A stretch of 64,000 nt of DNA from a virus (Duplodnaviria > Heunggongvirae > Uroviricota > Caudoviricetes). A program made the position numbers and the translations under genes. Where the stretch lies: positions 1 to 64,000 of IMG/VR virus record IMGVR_UViG_2913177423_000001, one strand, 5' to 3'. Under the pieces are notes generated by a model. That model did not search any database. It worked only from the letters and a program-made list of their open reading frames with translations, and had not been told where the DNA came from. Positions 2,053 through 63,212 of this stretch are shown here, in pieces (the stretch's first letter is position 1; every line of letters begins with the position of its first letter).

Positions 2053-3998
2053 TTAAGAATCCCATACGGATCAATATTCAATCTACTTTCGCTGATACGA
2101 TTCCCGGTTATACACCGAGCCGCTGGTCTTCGGAGGATTTAAGTGAAGATGATCTGATTTTTGAAGCGGCTACATTAGAAGATATCGAGCTTGCCTATAT
2201 GGGCAATGAAATTCTTGTTGTGTCCGACGAAGCTATGTTTGAGGCCATTACTACGACCAGAATTAGGCTTGCACAAACAATGCGGGCTTTCGTGCGTGCG
2301 CTAAATCGTGGCTTGAATGGAACGAATATATCAGCAGGAACTGATGAAGCCGGGGCGGATGAAAATGGTCGGAATTGTATTGGCGGAGCAATTATCGGGC
2401 GTGTTCGTCGCGTAGCTAATATTCCTGTTTTAACAGCACAGATACCACTGACTGATGGGCAAAGCACAAGTATCATCTTCCACTCTCCAACCGCCGATGG
2501 CGCGAAAATCAAGAGTAATGATGAACTGGTTGCATTTCAGTTTTTACTTAATAAGCGTAACGTAACTCACGTTGTTGCCCCGATCGGCGGGAGAGATGTT
2601 TCTTTAAGCCAGGTTTGCCAGGCGCTTTCTAATTTGATTGAGCGTAACAGCGCAAAATTCAAGAAGGCAAAAGAGCGACAGGACAAAATGAAGGCGGATA
2701 TTGAGAGTTATCTCAATGAAGCTGATAAGCTGGCTGAAGAACGGTCAATGATGATTGAGCGGGTGGAAGTAGCGCAGCGTGGACTGACAGAAAAGCGCAA
2801 TGCCCTCGCGGAAATGCAGAAACAACTTGATGCACAGAAAGTCCTTAACGCAGAGTTGCAGGAAAAACGAGATAAGTTGCTGTCTTATAAAAAGAATAAA
2901 GCAAAAGAAAGAACTTTTAATGACCAACTTCGACACGTAAAACATAACCTTGCCACTGATGGTAAAACTACGCTGGATAACGGCGCTGTTGTAAATTATG
3001 TGACGTTAGATGGTGATAGCTTCGTTACGATCGCGGCACCAGAAGGTAATTTCAGTATTGATGTCGGTGACGTCAAAGGTGGCAGCCTGGCAGACGCGGC
3101 AACCAAACTACTTAAAGCCTATCGAGAACATAATGCTGATAAATACAAAGTAGATGTGTTGCCAGGACAGCCGGAGCCAACTGTTCAGTCACAGCCAGAA
3201 TTACAACAAGATTCTGATCCACAACCAGCATCTCCGCAAGATACTCAGCATGTAGGCAAATACCGCTATGCTCTTCAATCGCGCCCGGCGGGGGTTGGTG
3301 CGGTGCCGGATGGAAATACAGCCGTGCTTGACCGTCCCGACCAGGCTGACCCGTATTACGAGTATGCTCGTTACGGGATCATTACGTATGACCGTAAACT
3401 GACAGATGAAGAAGTCAGTCAGTATGAATTACGCTATCTACCTGATGACGATGAACTGAAAAATATGGCGGGGGAACTGGTTGCGTCCAGCATGGCAAAA
3501 CACATTGATGGCTATGTAGACCTGTTTGGCAGTGACTTGAAAACATTCAAGGCGCAAGTAAAAATTCTTTTCCGCAAAGAGTTTCCGAACGTGGCTTATC
3601 CGCTTGGTGATGGGGAGAACCTTTTCATTATGGACGTATATAACGCCCTTCAAAATCATTCAAACGAAGCAACGCCAGAGCCTGAATTAGCACCTGTAGT
3701 TGAGCCAGAATCACACCCACAAACAGAACCAGAGCAACAGCCAACGCCGGAAGATGCTGGAGAAGCGGCAACTGAAGCTGATCAGGAAGCAGATAAAGCG
3801 TTGGAGTACCTTAAATCCGTCCCGGTGCAGTTTACATCCCGCGATCTGACGGTAATCAGTGCCGAACTTGACCATGTGCAGGAAGCTGCAAACGCTCTTA
3901 TCAGTGCTGGTCGATACGACGAGAACGAATCAACGGTTGGCGCAGCAGTTGACTACCTGATCAACATTCTGGCTGAAATTCAGCAGGGAGGTGCTTAA
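2049..3998 (+). CDS. large acidic coiled-coil protein, possible DarA-like head-internal protein
   Basis: 649-aa ORF coupled to upstream gene; size and position after invertase and lysis-like genes recall the P1 darA operon; no motif-level confirmation. Confidence 0.5.
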   Translation: MIKNPIRINIQSTFADTIPGYTPSRWSSEDLSEDDLIFEAATLEDIELAYMGNEILVVSDEAMFEAITTTRIRLAQTMRAFVRALNRGLNGTNISAGTDEAGADENGRNCIGGAIIGRVRRVANIPVLTAQIPLTDGQSTSIIFHSPTADGAKIKSNDELVAFQFLLNKRNVTHVVAPIGGRDVSLSQVCQALSNLIERNSAKFKKAKERQDKMKADIESYLNEADKLAEERSMMIERVEVAQRGLTEKRNALAEMQKQLDAQKVLNAELQEKRDKLLSYKKNKAKERTFNDQLRHVKHNLATDGKTTLDNGAVVNYVTLDGDSFVTIAAPEGNFSIDVGDVKGGSLADAATKLLKAYREHNADKYKVDVLPGQPEPTVQSQPELQQDSDPQPASPQDTQHVGKYRYALQSRPAGVGAVPDGNTAVLDRPDQADPYYEYARYGIITYDRKLTDEEVSQYELRYLPDDDELKNMAGELVASSMAKHIDGYVDLFGSDLKTFKAQVKILFRKEFPNVAYPLGDGENLFIMDVYNALQNHSNEATPEPELAPVVEPESHPQTEPEQQPTPEDAGEAATEADQEADKALEYLKSVPVQFTSRDLTVISAELDHVQEAANALISAGRYDENESTVGAAVDYLINILAEIQQGGA

Positions 3999-4366
3999 TG
4001 ACTATCTCTGTTTTAGACCGTCTGAAATTGGGTAAAGAGCTATCAGATTTAATGCAGGCGCAGAAAACCGCGCCAGTATTACAACGCGTCGCAATTGGTA
4101 AGCAGATTGTTGATCTGATGCTTAAGCTGGGGCTGGGTGCTGCCGCTCAACCGATATCGGAACCGCAACCACAGTCTGATCCTGTTGCAGATGAAGTTCC
4201 TAAGATAGTGACTGACTTCTTGGGCGGTGTGTTCACAAAGTCGACACAAATGGAATTTATTGATGCGCTGCGTGGGATCTCAAACTATGTTGGCGAGTTC
4301 CTTACGTTGGAGCAGGCTAAAGAGCAGACCATCGGTTGGGTTAAAGCCAACGGATATGCCGGGTAA
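3998..4366 (+). CDS. hypothetical protein (122 aa)
   Basis: ATGA-coupled to the upstream gene; same operon. Confidence 0.55.
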   Translation: MTISVLDRLKLGKELSDLMQAQKTAPVLQRVAIGKQIVDLMLKLGLGAAAQPISEPQPQSDPVADEVPKIVTDFLGGVFTKSTQMEFIDALRGISNYVGEFLTLEQAKEQTIGWVKANGYAG

Positions 4367-4370
4367 TCAA

Positions 4371-4392
4371 AAGGGGCTGAAATGCCCCTTTC
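4371..4392 (+). terminator. putative intrinsic terminator or attenuator
   Basis: hairpin AAGGGGC-tgaaat-GCCCCTT just after stop of 3998..4366; weak U-tract. Confidence 0.4.
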
Positions 4393-4460
4393 ACTTATCT
4401 GTTCTCACATAAATCACACACTTTTTACACTTCCAGCTTTCTCTATAGGGGGAGTGTATT

Positions 4461-5846
4461 TTGAACAAGTCAGTTACTTCTGCGCTTTCCGAGGCCGCAG
4501 ACATTAACAGCGTCATTGCTCTGGTTTCTTCATTAGAGAGGAAGGAAACACGCCTGGGGCGAAGTAGCTACGTAGTCACCAGCAAAGGCGCAGAGGTAAA
4601 GACAGCTTTTAAGGTTGTTGATGCCAGTAGCCTAATCATTTCGAATAACCTTGACGGTACGATTAACACTGCATTCCCGGAAGAACTCCAGCCACGTGAT
4701 CGTACACGTCTATCTAGCAAACTTCAGGTTAACCGTATTGCCTCCAATTTACGCCCAGCACAATTAACGGATTCAGGAATGAGTAGCCACGGAGCGCCAA
4801 TAGTTGGGCCTGACAACGTTGTTGAATCTGGTAATGGAAGGAGTATGGGGATCTGGCGCGCCTATGAGCAAGGACAGGCAGATGAATATCGCCAGTACCT
4901 GATCGACCATGCGAAAGAGTTTGGTCTGAATCCTGACGAAATTTCGCAAATGTCTATGCCCGTACTGGTGCGTGAAAGACTCACTGATGTAGATCGTGCG
5001 CAGTTCGCTCGCGATTCCAACATAAGTGATCTGCAAGAGATGGCGGCGAGTGAGAAAGCGTATGCTGATGCGCAATTCCTCACTGAGAGCGTCATGGCGC
5101 TATTTAATCCTTCAGAAGATGGAAATCTACTGGCGCGGTCCAATGATGCTTTTATTCGTGCGTTTTTGCGCGAAATAGGCGATACCGCGACGGCGGGTTT
5201 GCTTACTGCCGATGGGCGCCCTACGAAACAGCTGATCGACCGCATCCAGAATGCGATTTTTGCCAAAGCCTACAAAGATGAGCGACTGGTCCGGTTGGTG
5301 GCGGAAGAGCCAGATCCGGAAATGCGTAACATCCTGACCGCACTCAATACGGCAGCCAGCGATTTTGCGCAAATGCAGTCGCTGTCTGGCGACGTTCACC
5401 ATGACGCCGTAACTGGTTTAGTGGACGGTATAGAGCAGGTTAACGGTCTGGATACACAGGCAATTGCGGCACTCCAGGAAGCAATCAATCTTGTTCGTGA
5501 AGCCAAAGACAACGGTCAGGCCGTTGAAGAAGTGATCGCCCAAAGGGGGTTATTCGGCGACAGCACGCCAGAAGCAGAGGCGTTGGCGCTATTCATCGTA
5601 GCAAATAATCGTAGCGCGAAGCGTATGGGGGCAGCATTCAAAAAAATGGCGCAAAAAATCAACGACGAGCTGATTCATAAACAACAGGCGCTTGGCGATA
5701 TGTTCGGTGGTGAAGAAGTCGATTTGCGCAGTATTTTGTCTGTTGTTTCTGATGAAATTGAGGCTGAGTTTGGTGAAGGGAAAGGTCTGAACTTTGCTAT
5801 GTTCGAAAATTCTACAGCCCTAAATAATTGCAGTACGGAAAACTAA
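4461..5846 (+). CDS. hypothetical protein (461 aa), possible virion-associated protein
   Basis: long ORF; TTG start at 4461 preceded by GGGGGAG; no recognisable catalytic motif. Confidence 0.55.
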   Translation: MNKSVTSALSEAADINSVIALVSSLERKETRLGRSSYVVTSKGAEVKTAFKVVDASSLIISNNLDGTINTAFPEELQPRDRTRLSSKLQVNRIASNLRPAQLTDSGMSSHGAPIVGPDNVVESGNGRSMGIWRAYEQGQADEYRQYLIDHAKEFGLNPDEISQMSMPVLVRERLTDVDRAQFARDSNISDLQEMAASEKAYADAQFLTESVMALFNPSEDGNLLARSNDAFIRAFLREIGDTATAGLLTADGRPTKQLIDRIQNAIFAKAYKDERLVRLVAEEPDPEMRNILTALNTAASDFAQMQSLSGDVHHDAVTGLVDGIEQVNGLDTQAIAALQEAINLVREAKDNGQAVEEVIAQRGLFGDSTPEAEALALFIVANNRSAKRMGAAFKKMAQKINDELIHKQQALGDMFGGEEVDLRSILSVVSDEIEAEFGEGKGLNFAMFENSTALNNCSTEN

Positions 5847-57540: not shown

Positions 57541-58446
57541 ATGAGATCTGTCGCTTTCAAAAACATCTTCATCTATCGTCTTTCACGTGAAGTTAACTGG
57601 AGTGCCGCAGAAGTATCCGATGCTCTTAGCAAATTCGTGTTTACTCCTTGCGGTTCTCAGGACACAGCTAAAGTCGGTTGGACACCTGTTCTTGGTGACA
57701 ACCTCACCCATGAATACCAGGGTTTTCTGCTAATACAGCATAAGCGAGAAGAAAAAATTCTCCCTTCGCAGGTGCTCAAGGAAGAGTTGCAGAAAAAAGT
57801 CCTGAAACTCGAAGAAGAGCAAGCACGCAAGCTGAAGAAAACGGAAAGAGACAGTCTTAAAGATGAAGTCCTGCATTCCCTTTTGCCTCGCGCGTTCACG
57901 AGAAAATCACTCGCCAAAATCCTGATCGACCGCAGCAACCATCTGGTATTCGTTGAGGCAAGCAGCGCCAAAAAGGCAGAGGATCAGCTGGCTTTATTGC
58001 GAAAATCGCTCGGCAGCCTGCCCGTCATTCCATTCACACCACGCGAACCGCTGGAAATCACAATGACCGAGTGGTTTAAAAACGGCTTCCCTGCCGGATT
58101 CACAGCAGGTGAAGATGCCACATTAAAGGCTCTGTTTGATGATGGTGGTGCCGTTCGCTGCAACAAAGTTGATCTACAGTCCGACGAGATTATGTCTCAC
58201 ATTGAGGCGGGGAAAGTAGCTACGACCGTTGCAATTAACTGGATGGACCGCGCGTCGTTCAGAGTAAACGATGATATGAGTATCAAAGCCCTGACATTCT
58301 GTGATGATCTCTATGACCAGAATGACGATATCGACCGGGAGGATGTAGCACAACGATTTGATGCTGATTTCGTGCTCTTTACGGGCGAATTATCTGCACT
58401 GTTTAACGCGCTGGTGGAGGCCATTGGCGGTGAAGCAGAACGATAA
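57541..58446 (+). CDS. rdgC: RdgC-like recombination-associated protein
   Basis: 301 aa; colinear with bacterial RdgC including [33 protein letters not shown] and [20 protein letters not shown]. Confidence 0.8.
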
Positions 58447-59110
58447 TAACCGACCGCTTGTTGTGAGTGTGTGTGATTTTACGGGGGGAATGGTTGCCCC
58501 CTGGCTGGAATACGGTGTCGATGCCGCTATCGTCGATCCACAGCACTTATCGACCAGTGACGAGCTGATGCAATCAGGTGCCGTTCTGACGCGTATTAGT
58601 GCGATCATCGATAGCGATGAAGTATACGCTTTTCTCCGTAAGAATTTGCAGCGCATCGTGTTTCTGGCCGGGTTCCCACCGTGTACTGACCTGGCTGTTT
58701 CCGGCGCGCGCTGGTTTTCGGACAAGGCTAATAAAGATCCGGTCTTCCAGTTCAAAGCAATGCAGGTTGTCTGGCAGTGTTATGACATTGCAAAGATGAT
58801 CGGTTGTCCGTACATGATTGAAAATCCGGTCAGCAAAATATCGACATTCTGGCGTAAGCCAGATCACATCTTTCACCCTTACTTCTTCACTGCATATTGT
58901 CAGGAAGATAACTACACCAAAAAAACATGCCTCTGGAGCGGCCAGGGCTTTGTCATGCCTGATGCCCTAATGGACGAATCATTAGGCAAGCCAGATAACA
59001 GAATCCATGCCGCGCCACCAGGGCCTGACAGGGCTAATTTTAGAAGTGCTACTCCACATGGATTCGCAAAGGCAGTTTTCGAAGCGAATAAGGGGGTGCT
59101 CTATGAGTAA
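58430..59110 (+). CDS. short C5-cytosine methyltransferase-like protein
   Basis: GTG at 58430 after GGAGG; motif I-like CDFTGGM, catalytic PPC motif [15 protein letters not shown]-like MIENP; lacks a normal target-recognition domain. Confidence 0.5.
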
Positions 59111-60008
59111 ATCTATAGCAAGCATAGCCATAGAAAAACGGGATACGATGGCTGAAATTAGCTATATGCGCACCATTCGGACTCCGGATGAATATGAGCG
59201 TCCGATCTTCAAATGGGTAGGTGGTAAATTCTCAGAATTGCCTACAGTGCTTGAGCATCTACCACACGGCAAGCGGTTAATAGAACCGTTCGTTGGTGGC
59301 GGTTCCGTATTTACGAATGCAGGATTTCGCCACAACCTGCTTAATGATATTAACGGTGACCTGATTAACTTCTATCAGACATTGCAGCGGGAAGGACATT
59401 CGCTCGTCACGCTGTCATATAGTTTTTTCAAAAATTACAACAACGCTGACGCTTACCTCGAAGTGCGTGAGGCATTTAACAGAGGAAAGTATGACCAGCT
59501 ACATCATGCTGCCGCCTTTTTGTACCTTAATCGGCACTGTTTTAATGGCGTAACACGGTACAACCAAAATGGCGATTTCAACGTGGGGTATGGCAAATAC
59601 AAAGCGCCCTACTTCCCACATGCAGAGATGGAGGCGTTTTTGGCTGATGACGTACTCAAAAACACATCCTTTGTATCAGGTGACTTTGCTGGCGTCATCG
59701 AGGCGGCTGGTGAAGACGATGTGATTTTTTGCGATCCGCCGTATGAACCGCTGCCGGATACAGAGGGATTTACCAGCTATTCAGGAAATAGCTTCCGTTT
59801 CGATGAACAAAAAAGGCTTGTATCACTGTTGGTGGCTGCCCACCAGCGCGGCGCGAAGGTAGTGATAACAAACAGTGGCGCGCCCAAAATTCGCGAATTG
59901 TACGAAAGAAACGGTTTTAAGCTGTACCACATGCCAGCCAGACGGTCCGTGTCATGCAAAGCATCCACGCGAATAGTCGCTAACGATATCATTGCAACGC
60001 TCAAATAG
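59103..60008 (+). CDS. dam: Dam-family N6-adenine DNA methyltransferase
   Basis: ATG at 59103 overlapping upstream stop; FKWVGGK, FVGGGSV and DPPY motifs. Confidence 0.85.
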   Translation: MSKSIASIAIEKRDTMAEISYMRTIRTPDEYERPIFKWVGGKFSELPTVLEHLPHGKRLIEPFVGGGSVFTNAGFRHNLLNDINGDLINFYQTLQREGHSLVTLSYSFFKNYNNADAYLEVREAFNRGKYDQLHHAAAFLYLNRHCFNGVTRYNQNGDFNVGYGKYKAPYFPHAEMEAFLADDVLKNTSFVSGDFAGVIEAAGEDDVIFCDPPYEPLPDTEGFTSYSGNSFRFDEQKRLVSLLVAAHQRGAKVVITNSGAPKIRELYERNGFKLYHMPARRSVSCKASTRIVANDIIATLK

Positions 60009-60031
60009 AAAAAGCCCCAGGCGGGGCTTTT
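60009..60031. terminator. bidirectional intrinsic terminator
   Basis: GCCCC-agg-CGGGGC flanked by A-run and T-run between convergent operons. Confidence 0.7.
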
Positions 60032-60069
60032 GATGCCGATACAGTGTCAATTTGATATCAATATGGTTG

Positions 60070-60135
60070 TATATTAACACCATTACGGCACCACTTTGAC
60101 ACCATTATTGCACCGGTACATGATAGACACCAATG
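60070..60135. repeat. iteron-like ACACCA/GCACCA repeats downstream of ParA/RHH cassette
   Basis: AACACCATT, GGCACCACT, GACACCATT, GCACCGG, GACACCAAT within 65 bp. Confidence 0.45.
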
Positions 60136-60151
60136 AGGCATCAAATCGGTA

Positions 60152-60436
60152 TCATTTTGCATCCTCTGACTCAGCAAGCATGAGGATGGCATGTCGAATC
60201 AGGTTCAATTTGCTGCGGTTAAGCTTTTTGCTTAACGCATCGAGCACCCCGTACTCATATTCATTAAAGCTCACGCGTATGGATTTAAAGTCACGCGGCG
60301 CATCTTTATCTGGAGTTTGAGTTGCAGCCTCAACGCCCGGCACCAAATCGGCTTTAATGGCGAACTCTTCAATGCGGCGCTCTAGTTCAGGGTCTTTTAC
60401 AGCTTGTGCATTCACTGGCTCACGGCGCTTAATCAC
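60152..60436 (-). CDS. ribbon-helix-helix partition protein, ParG-like
   Basis: 94 aa; flexible N-terminus then RHH-like KSIRVSFNEYEYGVLDA; coupled downstream of ParA-like gene. Confidence 0.55.
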   Translation of the reverse strand: MIKRREPVNAQAVKDPELERRIEEFAIKADLVPGVEAATQTPDKDAPRDFKSIRVSFNEYEYGVLDALSKKLNRSKLNLIRHAILMLAESEDAK

Positions 60437-61065
60437 GATAACAACTCCTTAATCAACATCTGGATCTCGCCCTTTGCTTTCCCGTTGTCCATTTCAACAA
60501 CACCCTTCCCTTCTGCCATGCAGTCACGATAAATCTTACGGTCACGGACGACAGTTTTCAGGAGTTCAAGTTGCGGGTATTCAGCAAGATATTCCCTTGC
60601 CTCATTGGCTTCGTTAACGACCGGGTTGGATGGTGCCATAGTCAGCATGGCATACGCCTTAAGTTTAGGGTTGAAATCCATCGCCTCAGCTATAACCTCA
60701 ACAAGGTGCGGTAGAGTATCCAGATCCGGCTGGGAAGGACGGAACGGCACCAGAAGCACATCTGCCGCTGTCATGCCTGTACGCATCTCACGACTGTCGC
60801 GACCAGCAGTATCGACGACAACGTACTCGTAACGTTTATCCAGATCGAGCAGCGTCTCACGAATATTATCGAACTTCTGCACGCAGTGAATGACAGGGGC
60901 AACCTCACCTGCATTACGGTCTGACGCCCATCGAGCTGCCGTTCCCTGTTTATCAGCATCAATCAAGACGACATCTTTGTTTTTTCGGGCCAGCTCGGCA
61001 CAAATATTGACGCTGGTGGTTGACTTGCCACAGCCTCCCTTTTGACTTGCTACCAGGATAATCAT
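60433..61065 (-). CDS. small ParA-family partition ATPase
   Basis: deviant Walker A KGGCGKST at N-terminus; 210 aa. Confidence 0.8.
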   Translation of the reverse strand: MIILVASQKGGCGKSTTSVNICAELARKNKDVVLIDADKQGTAARWASDRNAGEVAPVIHCVQKFDNIRETLLDLDKRYEYVVVDTAGRDSREMRTGMTAADVLLVPFRPSQPDLDTLPHLVEVIAEAMDFNPKLKAYAMLTMAPSNPVVNEANEAREYLAEYPQLELLKTVVRDRKIYRDCMAEGKGVVEMDNGKAKGEIQMLIKELLS

Positions 61066-61142
61066 GTCCGCACCTCGGCTTTATTACGGCTCTATTTTCA
61101 CACTAAAACAGTACCGATTTAACACATCAACGGTACAGCAAT

Positions 61143-61305
61143 AGCACCATTCTTAATGCCAGGAGTATAACATCAAATCCGATGGATACTGGTACACGTT
61201 TTGCGCCTGAATAGCACTAAATTAGCACCAAATATGCACCAGTACATTAACAACACCAATTCGGCGTTGTTTTGGTGCCACTTCAACACCATTTTGACAC
61301 CAAAA
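61143..61305. repeat. iteron-like GCACCA/ACACCA repeat array upstream of ParA-like gene, candidate centromere
   Basis: at least seven copies of (A/G)(G/A)CACCA(A/T)T in direct and inverted orientation. Confidence 0.5.
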
Positions 61306-61310
61306 CTGAA

Positions 61311-61336
61311 CAAAAAAGGCTGCAATTTGCAGCCTT
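61311..61336 (-). terminator. intrinsic terminator of parMR operon
   Basis: GGCTGCAA-t-TTGCAGCC palindrome followed on the minus strand by TTTTTT. Confidence 0.6.
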
Positions 61337-61354
61337 AAGATAGTGTATGAACCG

Positions 61355-61699
61355 TCAATCAGGTAGAGAGTCAGCCAGATTGCGCGCCGACGCGCTTTTG
61401 GCAACAACTTGCTCCTTCACTGGCTCAATGGAGGCAGGTCGCTCTTCAACCGCAGCAGGTAGTTCCAGGAAGGACGCCAGCATTTTTCGGATCAGATCCG
61501 GGTTATTGTCTTCGGTTAGCAGGGAAGCCAGTAATCCTGGAAGCCTGCTATCGACTTCTCCCAGCGCAAGCCCTGCCAACAATGCAGTTCTTGCCATATC
61601 GCTATGTTTTTTTATCTTCTCGCTCGCCGCCTTTTCATTGGCATAAGCCTCTGGGCGAAGATAAATCATCACTTTCTTACGTTCCTGAGACATGGACAT
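61355..61699 (-). CDS. parR: ParR/StbB-like centromere-binding protein
   Basis: 114-aa ORF immediately downstream of parM-like gene. Confidence 0.55.
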   Translation of the reverse strand: MSMSQERKKVMIYLRPEAYANEKAASEKIKKHSDMARTALLAGLALGEVDSRLPGLLASLLTEDNNPDLIRKMLASFLELPAAVEERPASIEPVKEQVVAKSASARNLADSLPD

Positions 61700-61705
61700 A
61701 CCTCG

Positions 61706-62662
61706 TTAACCGATTGCTTTCAGGCCATGAACAAGAGCAAGTTGCGGGTCATCCGCCACGAAGAAACGGTCATCGCGAATATTAACTTGCTCGCGAATTG
61801 CATCAGCCACCAGTGGTGCGCCGCCACCGATCACCATGACATGCGTATATCCTTTAAAGTCGCCAATCACATCAAGAACGCGGGTACGCAGACGGTCAAT
61901 ACTTGCAGCAATGGCCTTTTTCACATCACCAATAGCTGATGGGTCATTGATATTGTCGTTCAGATAATCTTCATCGTGGCGGTTAATAATGAGCTGATCG
62001 ACATTGTAATTTGACGTTTCGGTATTGGCTCTGGCAAGTGCTTGCCTTACTTCCCTGGTAACCAGAGAGACGCCAAGATTCGAATCGCCAAAAACACGGG
62101 AAACTGCCGTCATTTGCCCGGCGACCATTGAAACATCAAGGGTAGTTCCACCCAAATCGACGATAAGAACAGAGTGGGCAGGGTTCAGATTGTCGCACAG
62201 GCCAATTCCTGCCGGAATAGACTCCGGGCGTACCGTAACTTTCTTAATCGTGAACACATTGCCTTTATTCAGCGTGACGGGGCGCATAAGGCTGGCTTTT
62301 TTGCGCTCGATGTTATCGAGATTGTATTGCGCGTCGTCGTCGTAAAACTCCGCCAGAGGCAGCGTGACCACGATTTCTACTTCCTGCGGCTCAATGCCAC
62401 TGGTCAGCAAAGCATGGTGAACAGCCAGGACGTTAAGCGGGCTGTATTGCCATTCCACGTTATTCGTCGGCAGAACATCTGGCGAGATCAAATCATACGA
62501 ATACTTTTCGTCGTCAATGACATAGTTAAACGGCTTGCCAGCACCAAATGTTGCGGACCAGCCGCGCTTAAAGCTGTTAGGACTGATGTGCGTGCGAGTT
62601 TCCCCGTCGTGTTCCCACAGCATTTTGATATTTGTTGAACCATCGTCGATAAAAATGCGCAT
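61706..62662 (-). CDS. parM: ParM/StbA actin-like partition ATPase
   Basis: MRIFIDDGSTNIKMLW phosphate-1 motif, DLGGTTLDVS, VMVIGGGA; ATG at 62662. Confidence 0.9.
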   Translation of the reverse strand: MRIFIDDGSTNIKMLWEHDGETRTHISPNSFKRGWSATFGAGKPFNYVIDDEKYSYDLISPDVLPTNNVEWQYSPLNVLAVHHALLTSGIEPQEVEIVVTLPLAEFYDDDAQYNLDNIERKKASLMRPVTLNKGNVFTIKKVTVRPESIPAGIGLCDNLNPAHSVLIVDLGGTTLDVSMVAGQMTAVSRVFGDSNLGVSLVTREVRQALARANTETSNYNVDQLIINRHDEDYLNDNINDPSAIGDVKKAIAASIDRLRTRVLDVIGDFKGYTHVMVIGGGAPLVADAIREQVNIRDDRFFVADDPQLALVHGLKAIG

Positions 62663-62687
62663 CTTCTTGCTCCACTTCTGAGACACA

Positions 62688-62850
62688 TTTGAGAATCAAA
62701 TCATGATTTTAAAAGAGAAGGAATCGAAAATCCACACAATTCGAGATGAAAGAGAGTCGTTATTGAGATTATTTTGAGAATATCTTTAACCACTTTCTGG
62801 GTTTGATGCAAAGGTGAGAACAATTCGAGAATAAAACGAGAATTTTAAAT
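62688..62850. repeat. parC-like centromere repeats upstream of parM
   Basis: five or more copies of TTYGAGAAT (TTTGAGAATC, ATTCGAGATG, TTTTGAGAAT, ATTCGAGAAT, ACGAGAATT). Confidence 0.5.
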
Positions 62851-62927
62851 ATTTCGTGATTTCACTCTCTCTTTGAGTGACGAAATAACAAAGTGATGAC
62901 AATAGGCGAATAACCAGGAGATGAAGA

Positions 62928-63212
62928 ATGAGCGCAATAGCCACCAGCGACACACTTTGTTCCGGTCACGGAGGATTCCCGCCGCGGCTGGTTGCTGAAA
63001 CCGTTCCCTGGTTCACCGTCAACGGTAAGCCAGTTGTTGTGGATGGTGCCATGTTCCCCAGCCATACAGACGGTAACAGCACACATCCGGGATCGGCTGT
63101 ATCGACGCGGGCATGGTATTCAATAGGTGGAAAGGGAGTCGTCTGCGTAGGCGATCCGCTTTCTTGTGGTTCTGTTATCGCCAACGGCGAGGATATTTTT
63201 CAGGTCGCATAA
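62928..63212 (+). CDS. PAAR-like spike-tip protein
   Basis: 94 aa, Gly/Cys/His-rich with GDPLSCGS motif resembling PAAR-repeat proteins. Confidence 0.4.
   Translation: MSAIATSDTLCSGHGGFPPRLVAETVPWFTVNGKPVVVDGAMFPSHTDGNSTHPGSAVSTRAWYSIGGKGVVCVGDPLSCGSVIANGEDIFQVA

What the first reader, a model, noticed from the sequence alone, without database searches (positions are those of the whole stretch)
60070..62850. Two different partition systems in tandem, each with its own repeat array
A ParM/ParR actin-type cassette (61355-62662) with TTYGAGAAT repeats upstream (62688-62850) lies directly next to a small ParA Walker-type ATPase plus RHH protein (60152-61065) that is flanked on both sides by GCACCA/ACACCA iterons (60070-60135 and 61143-61305). 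P1 uses a single type Ia parAB. Dual partition systems suggest a composite or cointegrate ancestry.
Basis: partly seen in the sequence, partly recalled or inferred. Interest (0 to 1): 0.45.

Follow-up and report, generated by a model that had tools for sequence, protein, structure and literature searches.

The report
Double partition locus of D6-like phage-plasmid
This prophage-plasmid carries two intact plasmid-segregation systems side by side (an actin-type ParM/ParR and a small ParA ATPase with a ribbon-helix-helix DNA binder), each with its own 11-bp-phased repeat array; the combination is already known from plasmids such as pB171 and is shared by the whole phage D6 family.

Summary
On the minus strand lie parC repeats, parM, parR and a terminator. 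These are followed by a box array with a promoter, parA, an RHH gene, a second box array and a terminator. All four genes are full length. ParM is 54% identical to R100/R1 ParM. ParA is a 210-aa ParF-like ATPase. The 94-aa protein models as a ribbon-helix-helix, with ParG as the top structural hit.

RCACCA boxes cluster only at these two places in the 64 kb, and they sit at an 11-bp period (z about 4.6). A matrix built from the window's boxes is enriched 5-10-fold around homologous ParA/RHH cassettes in Serratia, Aeromonas, Rahnella, Marinobacter and Thiothrix plasmids. It is not enriched around a pB171-type locus. The boxes therefore travel with the binding protein, not with a replicon.

The element is D6-like rather than P1. 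D6 itself has the same four genes, and so, by record counts, do nearly all of the roughly 120 related plasmids. Type II plus type Ib pairs are reported on 971 database plasmids. Nothing indicates a cointegrate. What differs from pB171 is the tandem layout with a terminator between the operons, an uncharacterised RHH family with its own boxes, and a much more variable ParA cassette. This is an ordinary new member of a known kind.

The parts
62663..62850 (-). parC: ParR-binding iterons and the parM promoter region. In gene orientation the boxes read (A/G)TTCTC(A/G). GAGA cores on the + strand lie at 62680, 62691, 62716, 62743, 62754, 62765 and 62776, then a 40-bp gap with the putative core promoter, then 62816, 62827 and 62838.
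   Evidence: All 3 exact TTYGAGAAT matches in the 64 kb fall here. Lag-11 z=4.6. TRF finds period 11. TCTC cores are invariant in 5 D6-like relatives while spacers vary, and one relative has an extra unit. The layout parallels the R100/R1 5+5 11-bp iterons, but the sequence differs.
61706..62662 (-). parM, actin-like segregation ATPase (318 aa).
   Evidence: Pfam PF06406 and PF21523. PDB R1 ParM E 1e-111 over residues 1-318. 54% identity to R100 ParM and 42.5% to pB171-type ParM. The DDGSTNIK, DLGGTTLD and IGGGA motifs are present in the translation. A GGAG sequence lies 7 nt before the ATG.
61355..61693 (-). parR (StbB-type adaptor, 112 aa counted from the second ATG; the ORF also opens at 61699).
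   Evidence: PF10784, 3e-11. pB171 ParR 2JD3, E 3.4e-7. 98% identical to D6 StbB. Relatives annotate it as 339 nt.
61316..61336 (-). Intrinsic terminator ending the parMR operon.
   Evidence: 9-bp stem followed by a T run. Essentially invariant across 7 relatives (one loop substitution).
61212..61304 (.). Upstream box array of the ParA system. RCACCA/TGGTGY boxes lie at 61214, 61225, 61236, 61253, 61273 (inverted), 61286 and 61297.
   Evidence: Inverted pair I17.
61164..61172 (-). Putative extended -10 element (TGTTATACT) of the parA promoter. A GTACCA box lies at 61190-61195, close to the -35 position.
   Evidence: TG-TATACT is invariant in 7 relatives. The consensus promoter scan did not call it, so this is an inference.
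61098..61151 (.). Five degenerate 11-bp-phased boxes in the parA leader, at 61100, 61111, 61122, 61133 and 61144.
   Evidence: Read from the sequence. The strongest autocorrelation lag in this segment is 22, z 3.4.
60433..61065 (-). parA, small Walker-type (type Ib) partition ATPase, 210 aa.
   Evidence: PDB ParF 4dzz E 7e-19 over residues 4-209. NCBIfam ParA_partition 165 bits, against a cut-off of 180. Pfam AAA_31, MipZ and CbiA. The deviant Walker A KGGCGKS lies at residues 9-15, with no N-terminal extension. 43% identical to pB171-type ParA.
60152..60436 (-). Centromere-binding protein, 94 aa, with a ribbon-helix-helix C-terminal half. Its GTG start overlaps the parA stop by 4 nt.
   Evidence: AF2 mean pLDDT 79, and 89-95 for the 10-residue blocks covering residues 51-90. 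The extended segment 51-57 is followed by helices 59-72 and 76-93. The Foldseek PDB top hit is ParG 1p94, followed mainly by TacA, CopA, CopG, Arc and NikA at rmsd 1.1-1.5 A. Of 57 family members, 25 weakly hit Pfam RHH_1 and 23 hit NikA-like. In the 8 plasmid and phage loci examined it always lies next to a ParA gene.
60075..60146 (.). Downstream box array of the ParA system. Boxes lie at 60077, 60088, 60099, 60110, 60127 and 60138.
   Evidence: Lag-11 z=4.6. TRF period 11.
60010..60031 (-). Terminator closing the parA operon after the downstream array. It lies tail-to-tail with the methylase gene.

Best explanation
This is the plasmid-maintenance module of a D6-like (P1-related) phage-plasmid. 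It is a tandem double par locus.

System 1 is type II. ParR is inferred to bind about 10 11-bp-phased iterons that flank the parM promoter. That complex would repress the operon and cap ParM filaments, and filament growth would push sister plasmids apart.

System 2 is type Ib and forms a separate operon behind a terminator. Dimers of the 94-aa RHH protein are inferred to bind TGGTGY/RCACCA boxes one helical turn apart. The boxes lie upstream of the promoter, around it, in the leader, and in a second array after the operon. The bound arrays would form the partition complex and autoregulate the operon. The protein's conserved basic N-terminus (MxKRR) is inferred to stimulate nucleoid-bound ParA-ATP, giving ParA-gradient equipositioning.

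Shown here: gene identities and intactness, the RHH fold, the statistics of the arrays, and their family-wide co-occurrence with the cassette. Inferred: DNA binding, autoregulation, ATPase stimulation, and that both systems contribute to stability.
For: The clustering and 11-bp period of the arrays come.

A PWM built only from the window's boxes is enriched 4.8-9.9-fold in the flanks of homologous cassettes. These are in Serratia, Aeromonas, Rahnella, Marinobacter and Thiothrix (p 1e-4 to 2.5e-8) and in D6, Shigella and E. fergusonii relatives (p 1e-6 to 4e-11). It is not enriched at a pB171-type locus (p 0.4).

The RHH strand K-x-I-R-V and the N-terminal M-x-K-R-R are invariant or nearly invariant across 57 family members. 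parC cores are invariant while spacers vary. The terminator and the -10 element are conserved. The same four genes are found in phage D6 and, by record counts, in about 119 of 122 relatives.

Upstream-plus-downstream arrays are a documented type Ib trait in pB171, pSM19035 and pESBL (PMC7602700).
Against: There is no experimental evidence for this element.

Column-wise conservation of the ParA boxes is no higher than that of the spacers among D6-like relatives (0.77 versus 0.75, p 0.2).

ParA scores slightly below NCBIfam's ParA_partition cut-off (165 versus 180).

The RHH assignment rests on a monomer model and on Foldseek E-values of 0.2-3.

The parA promoter was not found by the consensus scan.

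parM is frameshifted in two related records, so ParMRC may be dispensable in some lineages.
Confidence: 0.78

Rival explanations
1. Only one of the two systems actually works for partition. The other is redundant, or is kept only as a regulator or incompatibility determinant.
For: In SCP1 only one of two intact par systems matters under laboratory conditions (PMC13245405). parM carries frameshifts in CP042620 and CP115379 while the ParA cassette stays intact. The ParA cassette evolves much faster than ParMR.
Against: In the window all four genes are full length, with their catalytic motifs and cognate arrays. Both cassettes appear to be retained across the D6 family. The frameshifts may be sequencing errors, since CP042620 has several.
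Confidence: 0.12
2. The locus records a cointegrate or fusion of two replicons, each of which brought its own par system.
For: The ParA/RHH cassette exists alone on unrelated conjugative plasmids. DNA similarity to D6 stops at 61273, inside the upstream array.
Against: A complete close relative has one RepB plasmid replicon, one lytic replication gene and no second plasmid backbone. The two cassettes are adjacent within a conserved phage gene order that D6 shares. Module exchange by recombination explains the mosaic pattern without invoking a cointegrate.
Confidence: 0.05
3. The ParA/RHH pair is not a partition system. It could be a CopG-like copy-number or transcription regulator with an accessory ATPase, or a VirC1/VirC2-like DNA-processing pair. 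The arrays would then be operators or replication iterons.
For: A D6-like plasmid paper lists 'cop' among these genes (PMC6799933). ParA hits Pfam VirC1 at 1.5e-11. RHH proteins are very often repressors.
Against: The best full-length matches are ParF and ParA_partition, and identity to pB171-type ParA is 43%. The RepB iterons of a close relative are a different 19-mer, 12 kb away. Arrays on both sides of the operon at helical phase are a type Ib centromere pattern (PMC7602700). In the loci examined, the cassette accompanies several different replicons, including IncI1, TrfA and RepB.
Confidence: 0.05

Closest known systems
Double par locus of pB171 (par1 parMRC plus par2 parABC). It was examined here through a pB171-type locus on IncI-gamma/K1 plasmid pEC29-3 (L006), whose ParR matches PDB 2JD3 at 77 of the 78 residues compared.
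   Same: A type II system lies directly next to a type Ib system. The small ParA is 43% identical and ParM 42.5% identical. The CBP is about 90 aa with an RHH-like C-terminus. Short boxes lie both upstream and downstream of parAB (PMC7602700; PMC4270457).
   Different: The operons here are in tandem on one strand with a terminator between them. They are not divergent around a shared parC1, so the pB171-style shared control region is absent. The CBP shows no detectable sequence similarity to pB171-type ParB. The boxes are TGGTGY at 11-bp phase rather than TCACA/TTCATA-type, and the window PWM is not enriched at L006.
R1/R100 parMRC (stbAB)
   Same: ParM is 54% identical over its full length. 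parR lies directly downstream. About 10 iterons at an 11-bp period are split by the promoter.
   Different: ParR is only 31% identical. The iteron sequence is ATTCTCRAA-type rather than AAAACAAACCC-type. The split is 3+7 rather than 5+5.
TP228 ParF-ParG-parH (type Ib)
   Same: ParF is the best solved-structure match to ParA. ParG is the top structural match to the CBP model. The CBP has a flexible basic N-terminus followed by an RHH, as ParG does (general knowledge of ParG).
   Different: Sequence similarity is low: E 7e-19 for ParA and no sequence hit for the CBP. From general knowledge, parH uses tetramer boxes and lies upstream only.
Phage D6 genes D6_58 to D6_61
   Same: The same four genes in the same order and at the same genomic position. 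ParM is 99.7% and ParR 98% identical.
   Different: ParA is 85% and the CBP 76% identical. D6 has glnS and a different downstream array after the CBP gene. D6 annotates orf60 only as 'possible ParA' and orf61 as hypothetical.
pESBL (IncI1) type Ib parAB with octamer parS
   Same: A small ParA and a roughly 100-aa orphan CBP, with arrays on both sides of the operon. This system has been shown experimentally to bind its repeats and to stabilise a plasmid (PMC7602700).
   Different: The repeat is the octamer GATAACAA, and the CBP family is unrelated.

Membership tests
Type II ParMRC | Actin-fold ParM ATPase with both domains and the nucleotide-binding motifs | tested here: met
Type II ParMRC | ParR adaptor gene immediately downstream of parM | tested here: met
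   PF10784 at 3e-11. 2JD3 at E 3.4e-7.
Type II ParMRC | parC: iterated repeats upstream of parM that surround the promoter | tested here: met
   About 10 boxes at 11-bp phase. Cores are invariant in relatives. The promoter position itself is inferred.
Type II ParMRC | ParR-parC complex nucleates or caps ParM filaments and stabilises the plasmid | not testable with these tools
   Requires biochemistry and plasmid-loss assays.
Type Ib ParA/RHH-CBP | Small (about 200-220 aa) deviant-Walker-A ParA lacking the N-terminal DNA-binding domain of type Ia | tested here: met
   210 aa, with KGGCGKS at residues 9-15. Full-length match to ParF.
Type Ib ParA/RHH-CBP | Small centromere-binding protein with a ribbon-helix-helix fold, encoded just downstream | tested here: met
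   AF2 model and Foldseek hits, which are predominantly RHH proteins. Weak RHH Pfam hits across the family. The 4-nt start/stop overlap is read.
Type Ib ParA/RHH-CBP | Arrays of short repeats adjacent to the operon that serve as centromere and operator | tested here: met
   Presence, significance, period and co-occurrence with the CBP family were tested. Binding itself was not tested.
Type Ib ParA/RHH-CBP | CBP binds the repeats and stimulates the ParA ATPase; the locus stabilises a plasmid | not testable with these tools
   Requires EMSA or footprinting, ATPase assays and stability assays.
pB171-type double par locus | Divergent par1 and par2 operons sharing the central parC1 control region | tested here: not met
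   Both operons are on the minus strand, separated by a terminator. Compare L006.
pB171-type double par locus | CBP homologous to pB171 ParB, with its hexamer boxes | tested here: not met
   No BLAST hit. hhalign probability 1%. PWM not enriched at L006.
P1-type (type Ia) parABS | Large ParA with an N-terminal HTH, an HTH-ParB, and parS | tested here: not met
   ParA is 210 aa and the CBP is an RHH protein. No ParB/Spo0J gene is annotated in the complete close relative.

The most novel reading that the evidence does not exclude
The ParA/RHH cassette may represent a so far uncharacterised type Ib subfamily. Its CBP family has at least 757 members and no names in the databases. It has a conserved centromere pattern: TGGTRC/RCACCA boxes, often palindromic as TGGTACCA, spaced one helical turn apart and split into arrays before and after the operon. 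In D6-like phage-plasmids this cassette is a recombination hot spot. It carries distinct alleles beside a nearly invariant ParMRC, and those alleles could set partition-incompatibility groups or host-specific stability among otherwise similar prophages.
Probability: 0.3. Interest if true: 0.4.

Novelty: new member of a known kind. Interest (0 to 1): 0.2.

Why it matters
The main value is for annotation. It explains how D6-like phage-plasmids, which carry resistance genes in Escherichia and Salmonella, are kept at low copy without P1's parABS. It assigns a function to an unnamed 94-aa protein family, and it defines two candidate centromeres that could be used for incompatibility curing or plasmid tagging. 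It does not change the current understanding of partition systems.

Tried and rejected
- Sequence searches with the 94-aa protein alone gave nothing in Pfam, NCBIfam or the PDB. A family profile against PDB sequences also gave only noise. The fold had to be shown by modelling.
- Profile comparison with pB171-type ParB found no relationship.
- Box-versus-spacer column conservation among D6-like relatives was not significant. Boxes shift and flip between alleles, so an alignment-free PWM test was used instead.
- The consensus promoter scan found no parA or parM promoter. The promoters are inferred from conserved -10-like elements.
- Rfam found no RNA family in 59900-63000.
- The D6 genome paper (PMC5800970) and the pB171 paper (PMC64986) are not held. 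pB171 itself is not in the plasmid collection under NC_002142 or AB024946, so a pB171-type locus was located through the 2JD3 ParR sequence.
- Replication iterons were rejected as an explanation for the boxes.
Full report
**What is in the sequence**

All four genes lie on the minus strand. In the direction of transcription the order is:
- a 265-bp region upstream of parM (62927-62663)
- parM (62662-61706)
- parR (61693 or 61699 to 61355)
- a stem-loop terminator (61336-61316)
- a 250-bp repeat-rich region
- parA (61065-60433)
- a 94-aa ORF whose GTG start overlaps the parA stop (60436-60152)
- a second repeat region (60146-60075)
- a terminator (60031-60010) that abuts the end of a Dam-type methylase gene.

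**The proteins**

- ParM matches both Pfam ParM domains. It matches R1 ParM structures over the full length at E 1e-111. It is 54% identical to R100 ParM and 42.5% to a pB171-type ParM. The phosphate-binding and adenosine motifs are present.
- ParR matches PF10784 and the pB171 ParR structure 2JD3. It is about 31-33% identical to both the R100 and the pB171-type ParR.
- ParA is 210 aa and begins directly with the deviant Walker A motif. Its best solved relative is ParF of TP228, matched over the full length. It scores 165 bits on NCBIfam ParA_partition, just under the cut-off of 180. It is 43% identical to the ParA of a pB171-type locus.
- The 94-aa protein has no sequence-level family. A profile built from plasmid homologues retrieved 757 relatives. 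An AF2 model made with 57 of them has blockwise pLDDT of 89-95 over residues 51-90. It shows an extended segment at 51-57 followed by two helices. The Foldseek hits in the PDB are predominantly RHH proteins: ParG first, then TacA, CopA, CopG, Arc and NikA, at rmsd 1.1-1.5 A over 40-43 residues. The E-values are weak, as expected for a 45-residue domain. Of the 57 family members, 25 weakly hit Pfam RHH_1 and 23 hit NikA-like.
- The putative DNA-reading strand K-x-I-R-V and the N-terminal M-x-K-R-R are invariant or nearly invariant in the family.

**The ParA-side repeats**

Exact RCACCA is over-represented in the window as a whole: 92 observed against 61±7 expected. The excess is concentrated. 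There are 7 matches in 61141-61310 and 4 in 60076-60140, and no other 170-bp window holds more than 2.

The boxes sit 11 bp apart, with a 17-bp step in each array. Lag-11 autocorrelation is z=4.6-4.7 in both arrays, while five control segments show nothing at that lag. TRF independently reports period 11. Five more degenerate boxes at 61100-61144 continue the phase into the parA leader.

Between the two upstream groups lies TGTTATACT (61172-61164). This extended -10-like element is invariant in seven relatives. A GTACCA box lies near the -35 position.

Many boxes are partly palindromic (TGGCACCA, TGGTACCA), and some flip orientation between alleles. That behaviour fits a dimeric RHH reader.

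**Evidence that the boxes belong to the binding protein**

Column conservation among close relatives did not separate boxes from spacers. The stronger test did not depend on an alignment. A matrix built only from the window's 18 boxes is enriched 4.8-9.9-fold in the 290 bp flanking homologous ParA/CBP cassettes. This holds on Serratia, Aeromonas, Rahnella, Marinobacter and Thiothrix plasmids (p 1e-4 to 2.5e-8), again with 11-bp steps. It also holds in D6, Shigella and E. fergusonii relatives. It does not hold at a pB171-type locus (p 0.4).

The host plasmids carry several different replicons, including IncI1, TrfA and RepB. The RepB iterons of a close relative are a different 19-mer located 12 kb away. 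The arrays therefore move with the cassette and not with a replicon.

**The ParM-side repeats**

All three exact TTYGAGAAT matches in the 64 kb lie in 62688-62832. Allowing for degeneracy, ten GAGA-core boxes fall at 11-bp phase: three on the far side and seven on the parM side of a 40-bp gap that probably holds the core promoter. The TCTC cores are invariant in five D6-like relatives while the spacers vary, and one relative has an extra unit. R100/R1 parC has the same 11-bp design, with iterons split 5+5 around the promoter, but a different sequence.

**Context**

The window is a D6-like phage-plasmid. The best DNA matches are E. coli plasmids of 88-97 kb at up to 96% identity, and phage D6 at 92% over the ParMR half only. 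D6 carries the same four genes, annotated as StbA, StbB, 'possible ParA' and hypothetical.

By comparing record counts, about 119 of 122 related plasmids appear to have both cassettes. A complete close relative has a single RepB replicon, a lytic replication gene, phd-doc and higBA, and no P1-type parAB.

Within the family, identity to the window is 98-99.7% for ParM and 87-99% for ParR. It is only 84-87% for ParA and 75-82% for the CBP. The megablast match to D6 ends at 61273, inside the upstream array. The ParA cassette is therefore the variable, exchangeable part of the locus.

**Comparison with known systems**

A type II system next to a type Ib system is the arrangement first described for pB171. 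A 2026 survey counts 971 PLSDB plasmids that pair type I-RHH with type II (PMC13245405). Arrays both upstream and downstream of a type Ib operon are documented for pB171, pSM19035 and pESBL (PMC7602700). A paper on a D6-like Salmonella plasmid already lists 'cop, parA, stbB and parM' as its partition genes (PMC6799933).

The present locus differs from pB171 in three ways:
- The operons are in tandem and separated by a terminator, rather than divergent around a shared parC1.
- The CBP family is unrelated at the sequence level.
- The boxes are different.

**Verdict**

Both cassettes are intact and the arrays behave like centromeres. The inference of cointegrate ancestry is not supported; modular assembly and allele exchange explain the data. 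This is an ordinary double par locus. It is a new member of a known kind, with an uncharacterised type Ib CBP and box family as its only modestly new element. Function remains inferred until binding and stability assays are done.

Noticed in passing
window 60009-60151, compared with L007 29388-29655 and L001 3606-3873: The window has no glnS (glutaminyl-tRNA synthetase) gene between the CBP gene and the methylase. D6 and the relatives with the closest ParA/CBP allele carry a 1.66-kb glnS there, with a differently arranged downstream box array. Two versions of the downstream centromere region therefore circulate.
   Followed up: partly
L011 (NZ_CP115379) 2689-3923 and L002 (CP042620) 3201-4500: parM is frameshifted in these two D6-like records: once in CP115379 and several times in CP042620. 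Their ParA/CBP cassette is intact. These are either sequencing errors or loss of ParMRC in some lineages.
   Followed up: partly
window 62928-63212 (+): A 94-aa PAAR-domain protein, the homologue of P1 upfC, is transcribed divergently from parM. Its 5' region shares the intergenic space with parC.
   Followed up: no
window 58358-59110 and 59007-60008 (+): Two overlapping methylase ORFs, the upstream one corresponding to D6's cytosine-methylase gene and the downstream one a D12-class adenine methylase, are separate as in D6. The closest plasmid relative instead has one 762-aa fused Dam-family protein like P1 Dmt.
   Followed up: no
L013 (Marinobacter plasmid), about 1610-1760, upstream of its parA: Beyond the 11-bp boxes next to parA there is a separate array of about four to five copies of a roughly 35-bp unit (AAGGTGTATCTCCACCTTGCACGGTGTACTCCA...). 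Its function is unknown.
   Followed up: no
L010 (NZ_CP149812) parC, alignment A4 columns 115-137: This relative has one additional TTCTCA iteron unit in parC compared with the window and D6, so iteron copy number varies within the family.
   Followed up: no
window 61269-61306: Two ParA-side boxes form a 12-nt inverted repeat (GTTTTGGTGCCA / TGACACCAAAAC) separated by 14 nt. The upstream array therefore mixes direct and inverted boxes, as reported for pESBL parS (PMC7602700).
   Followed up: no
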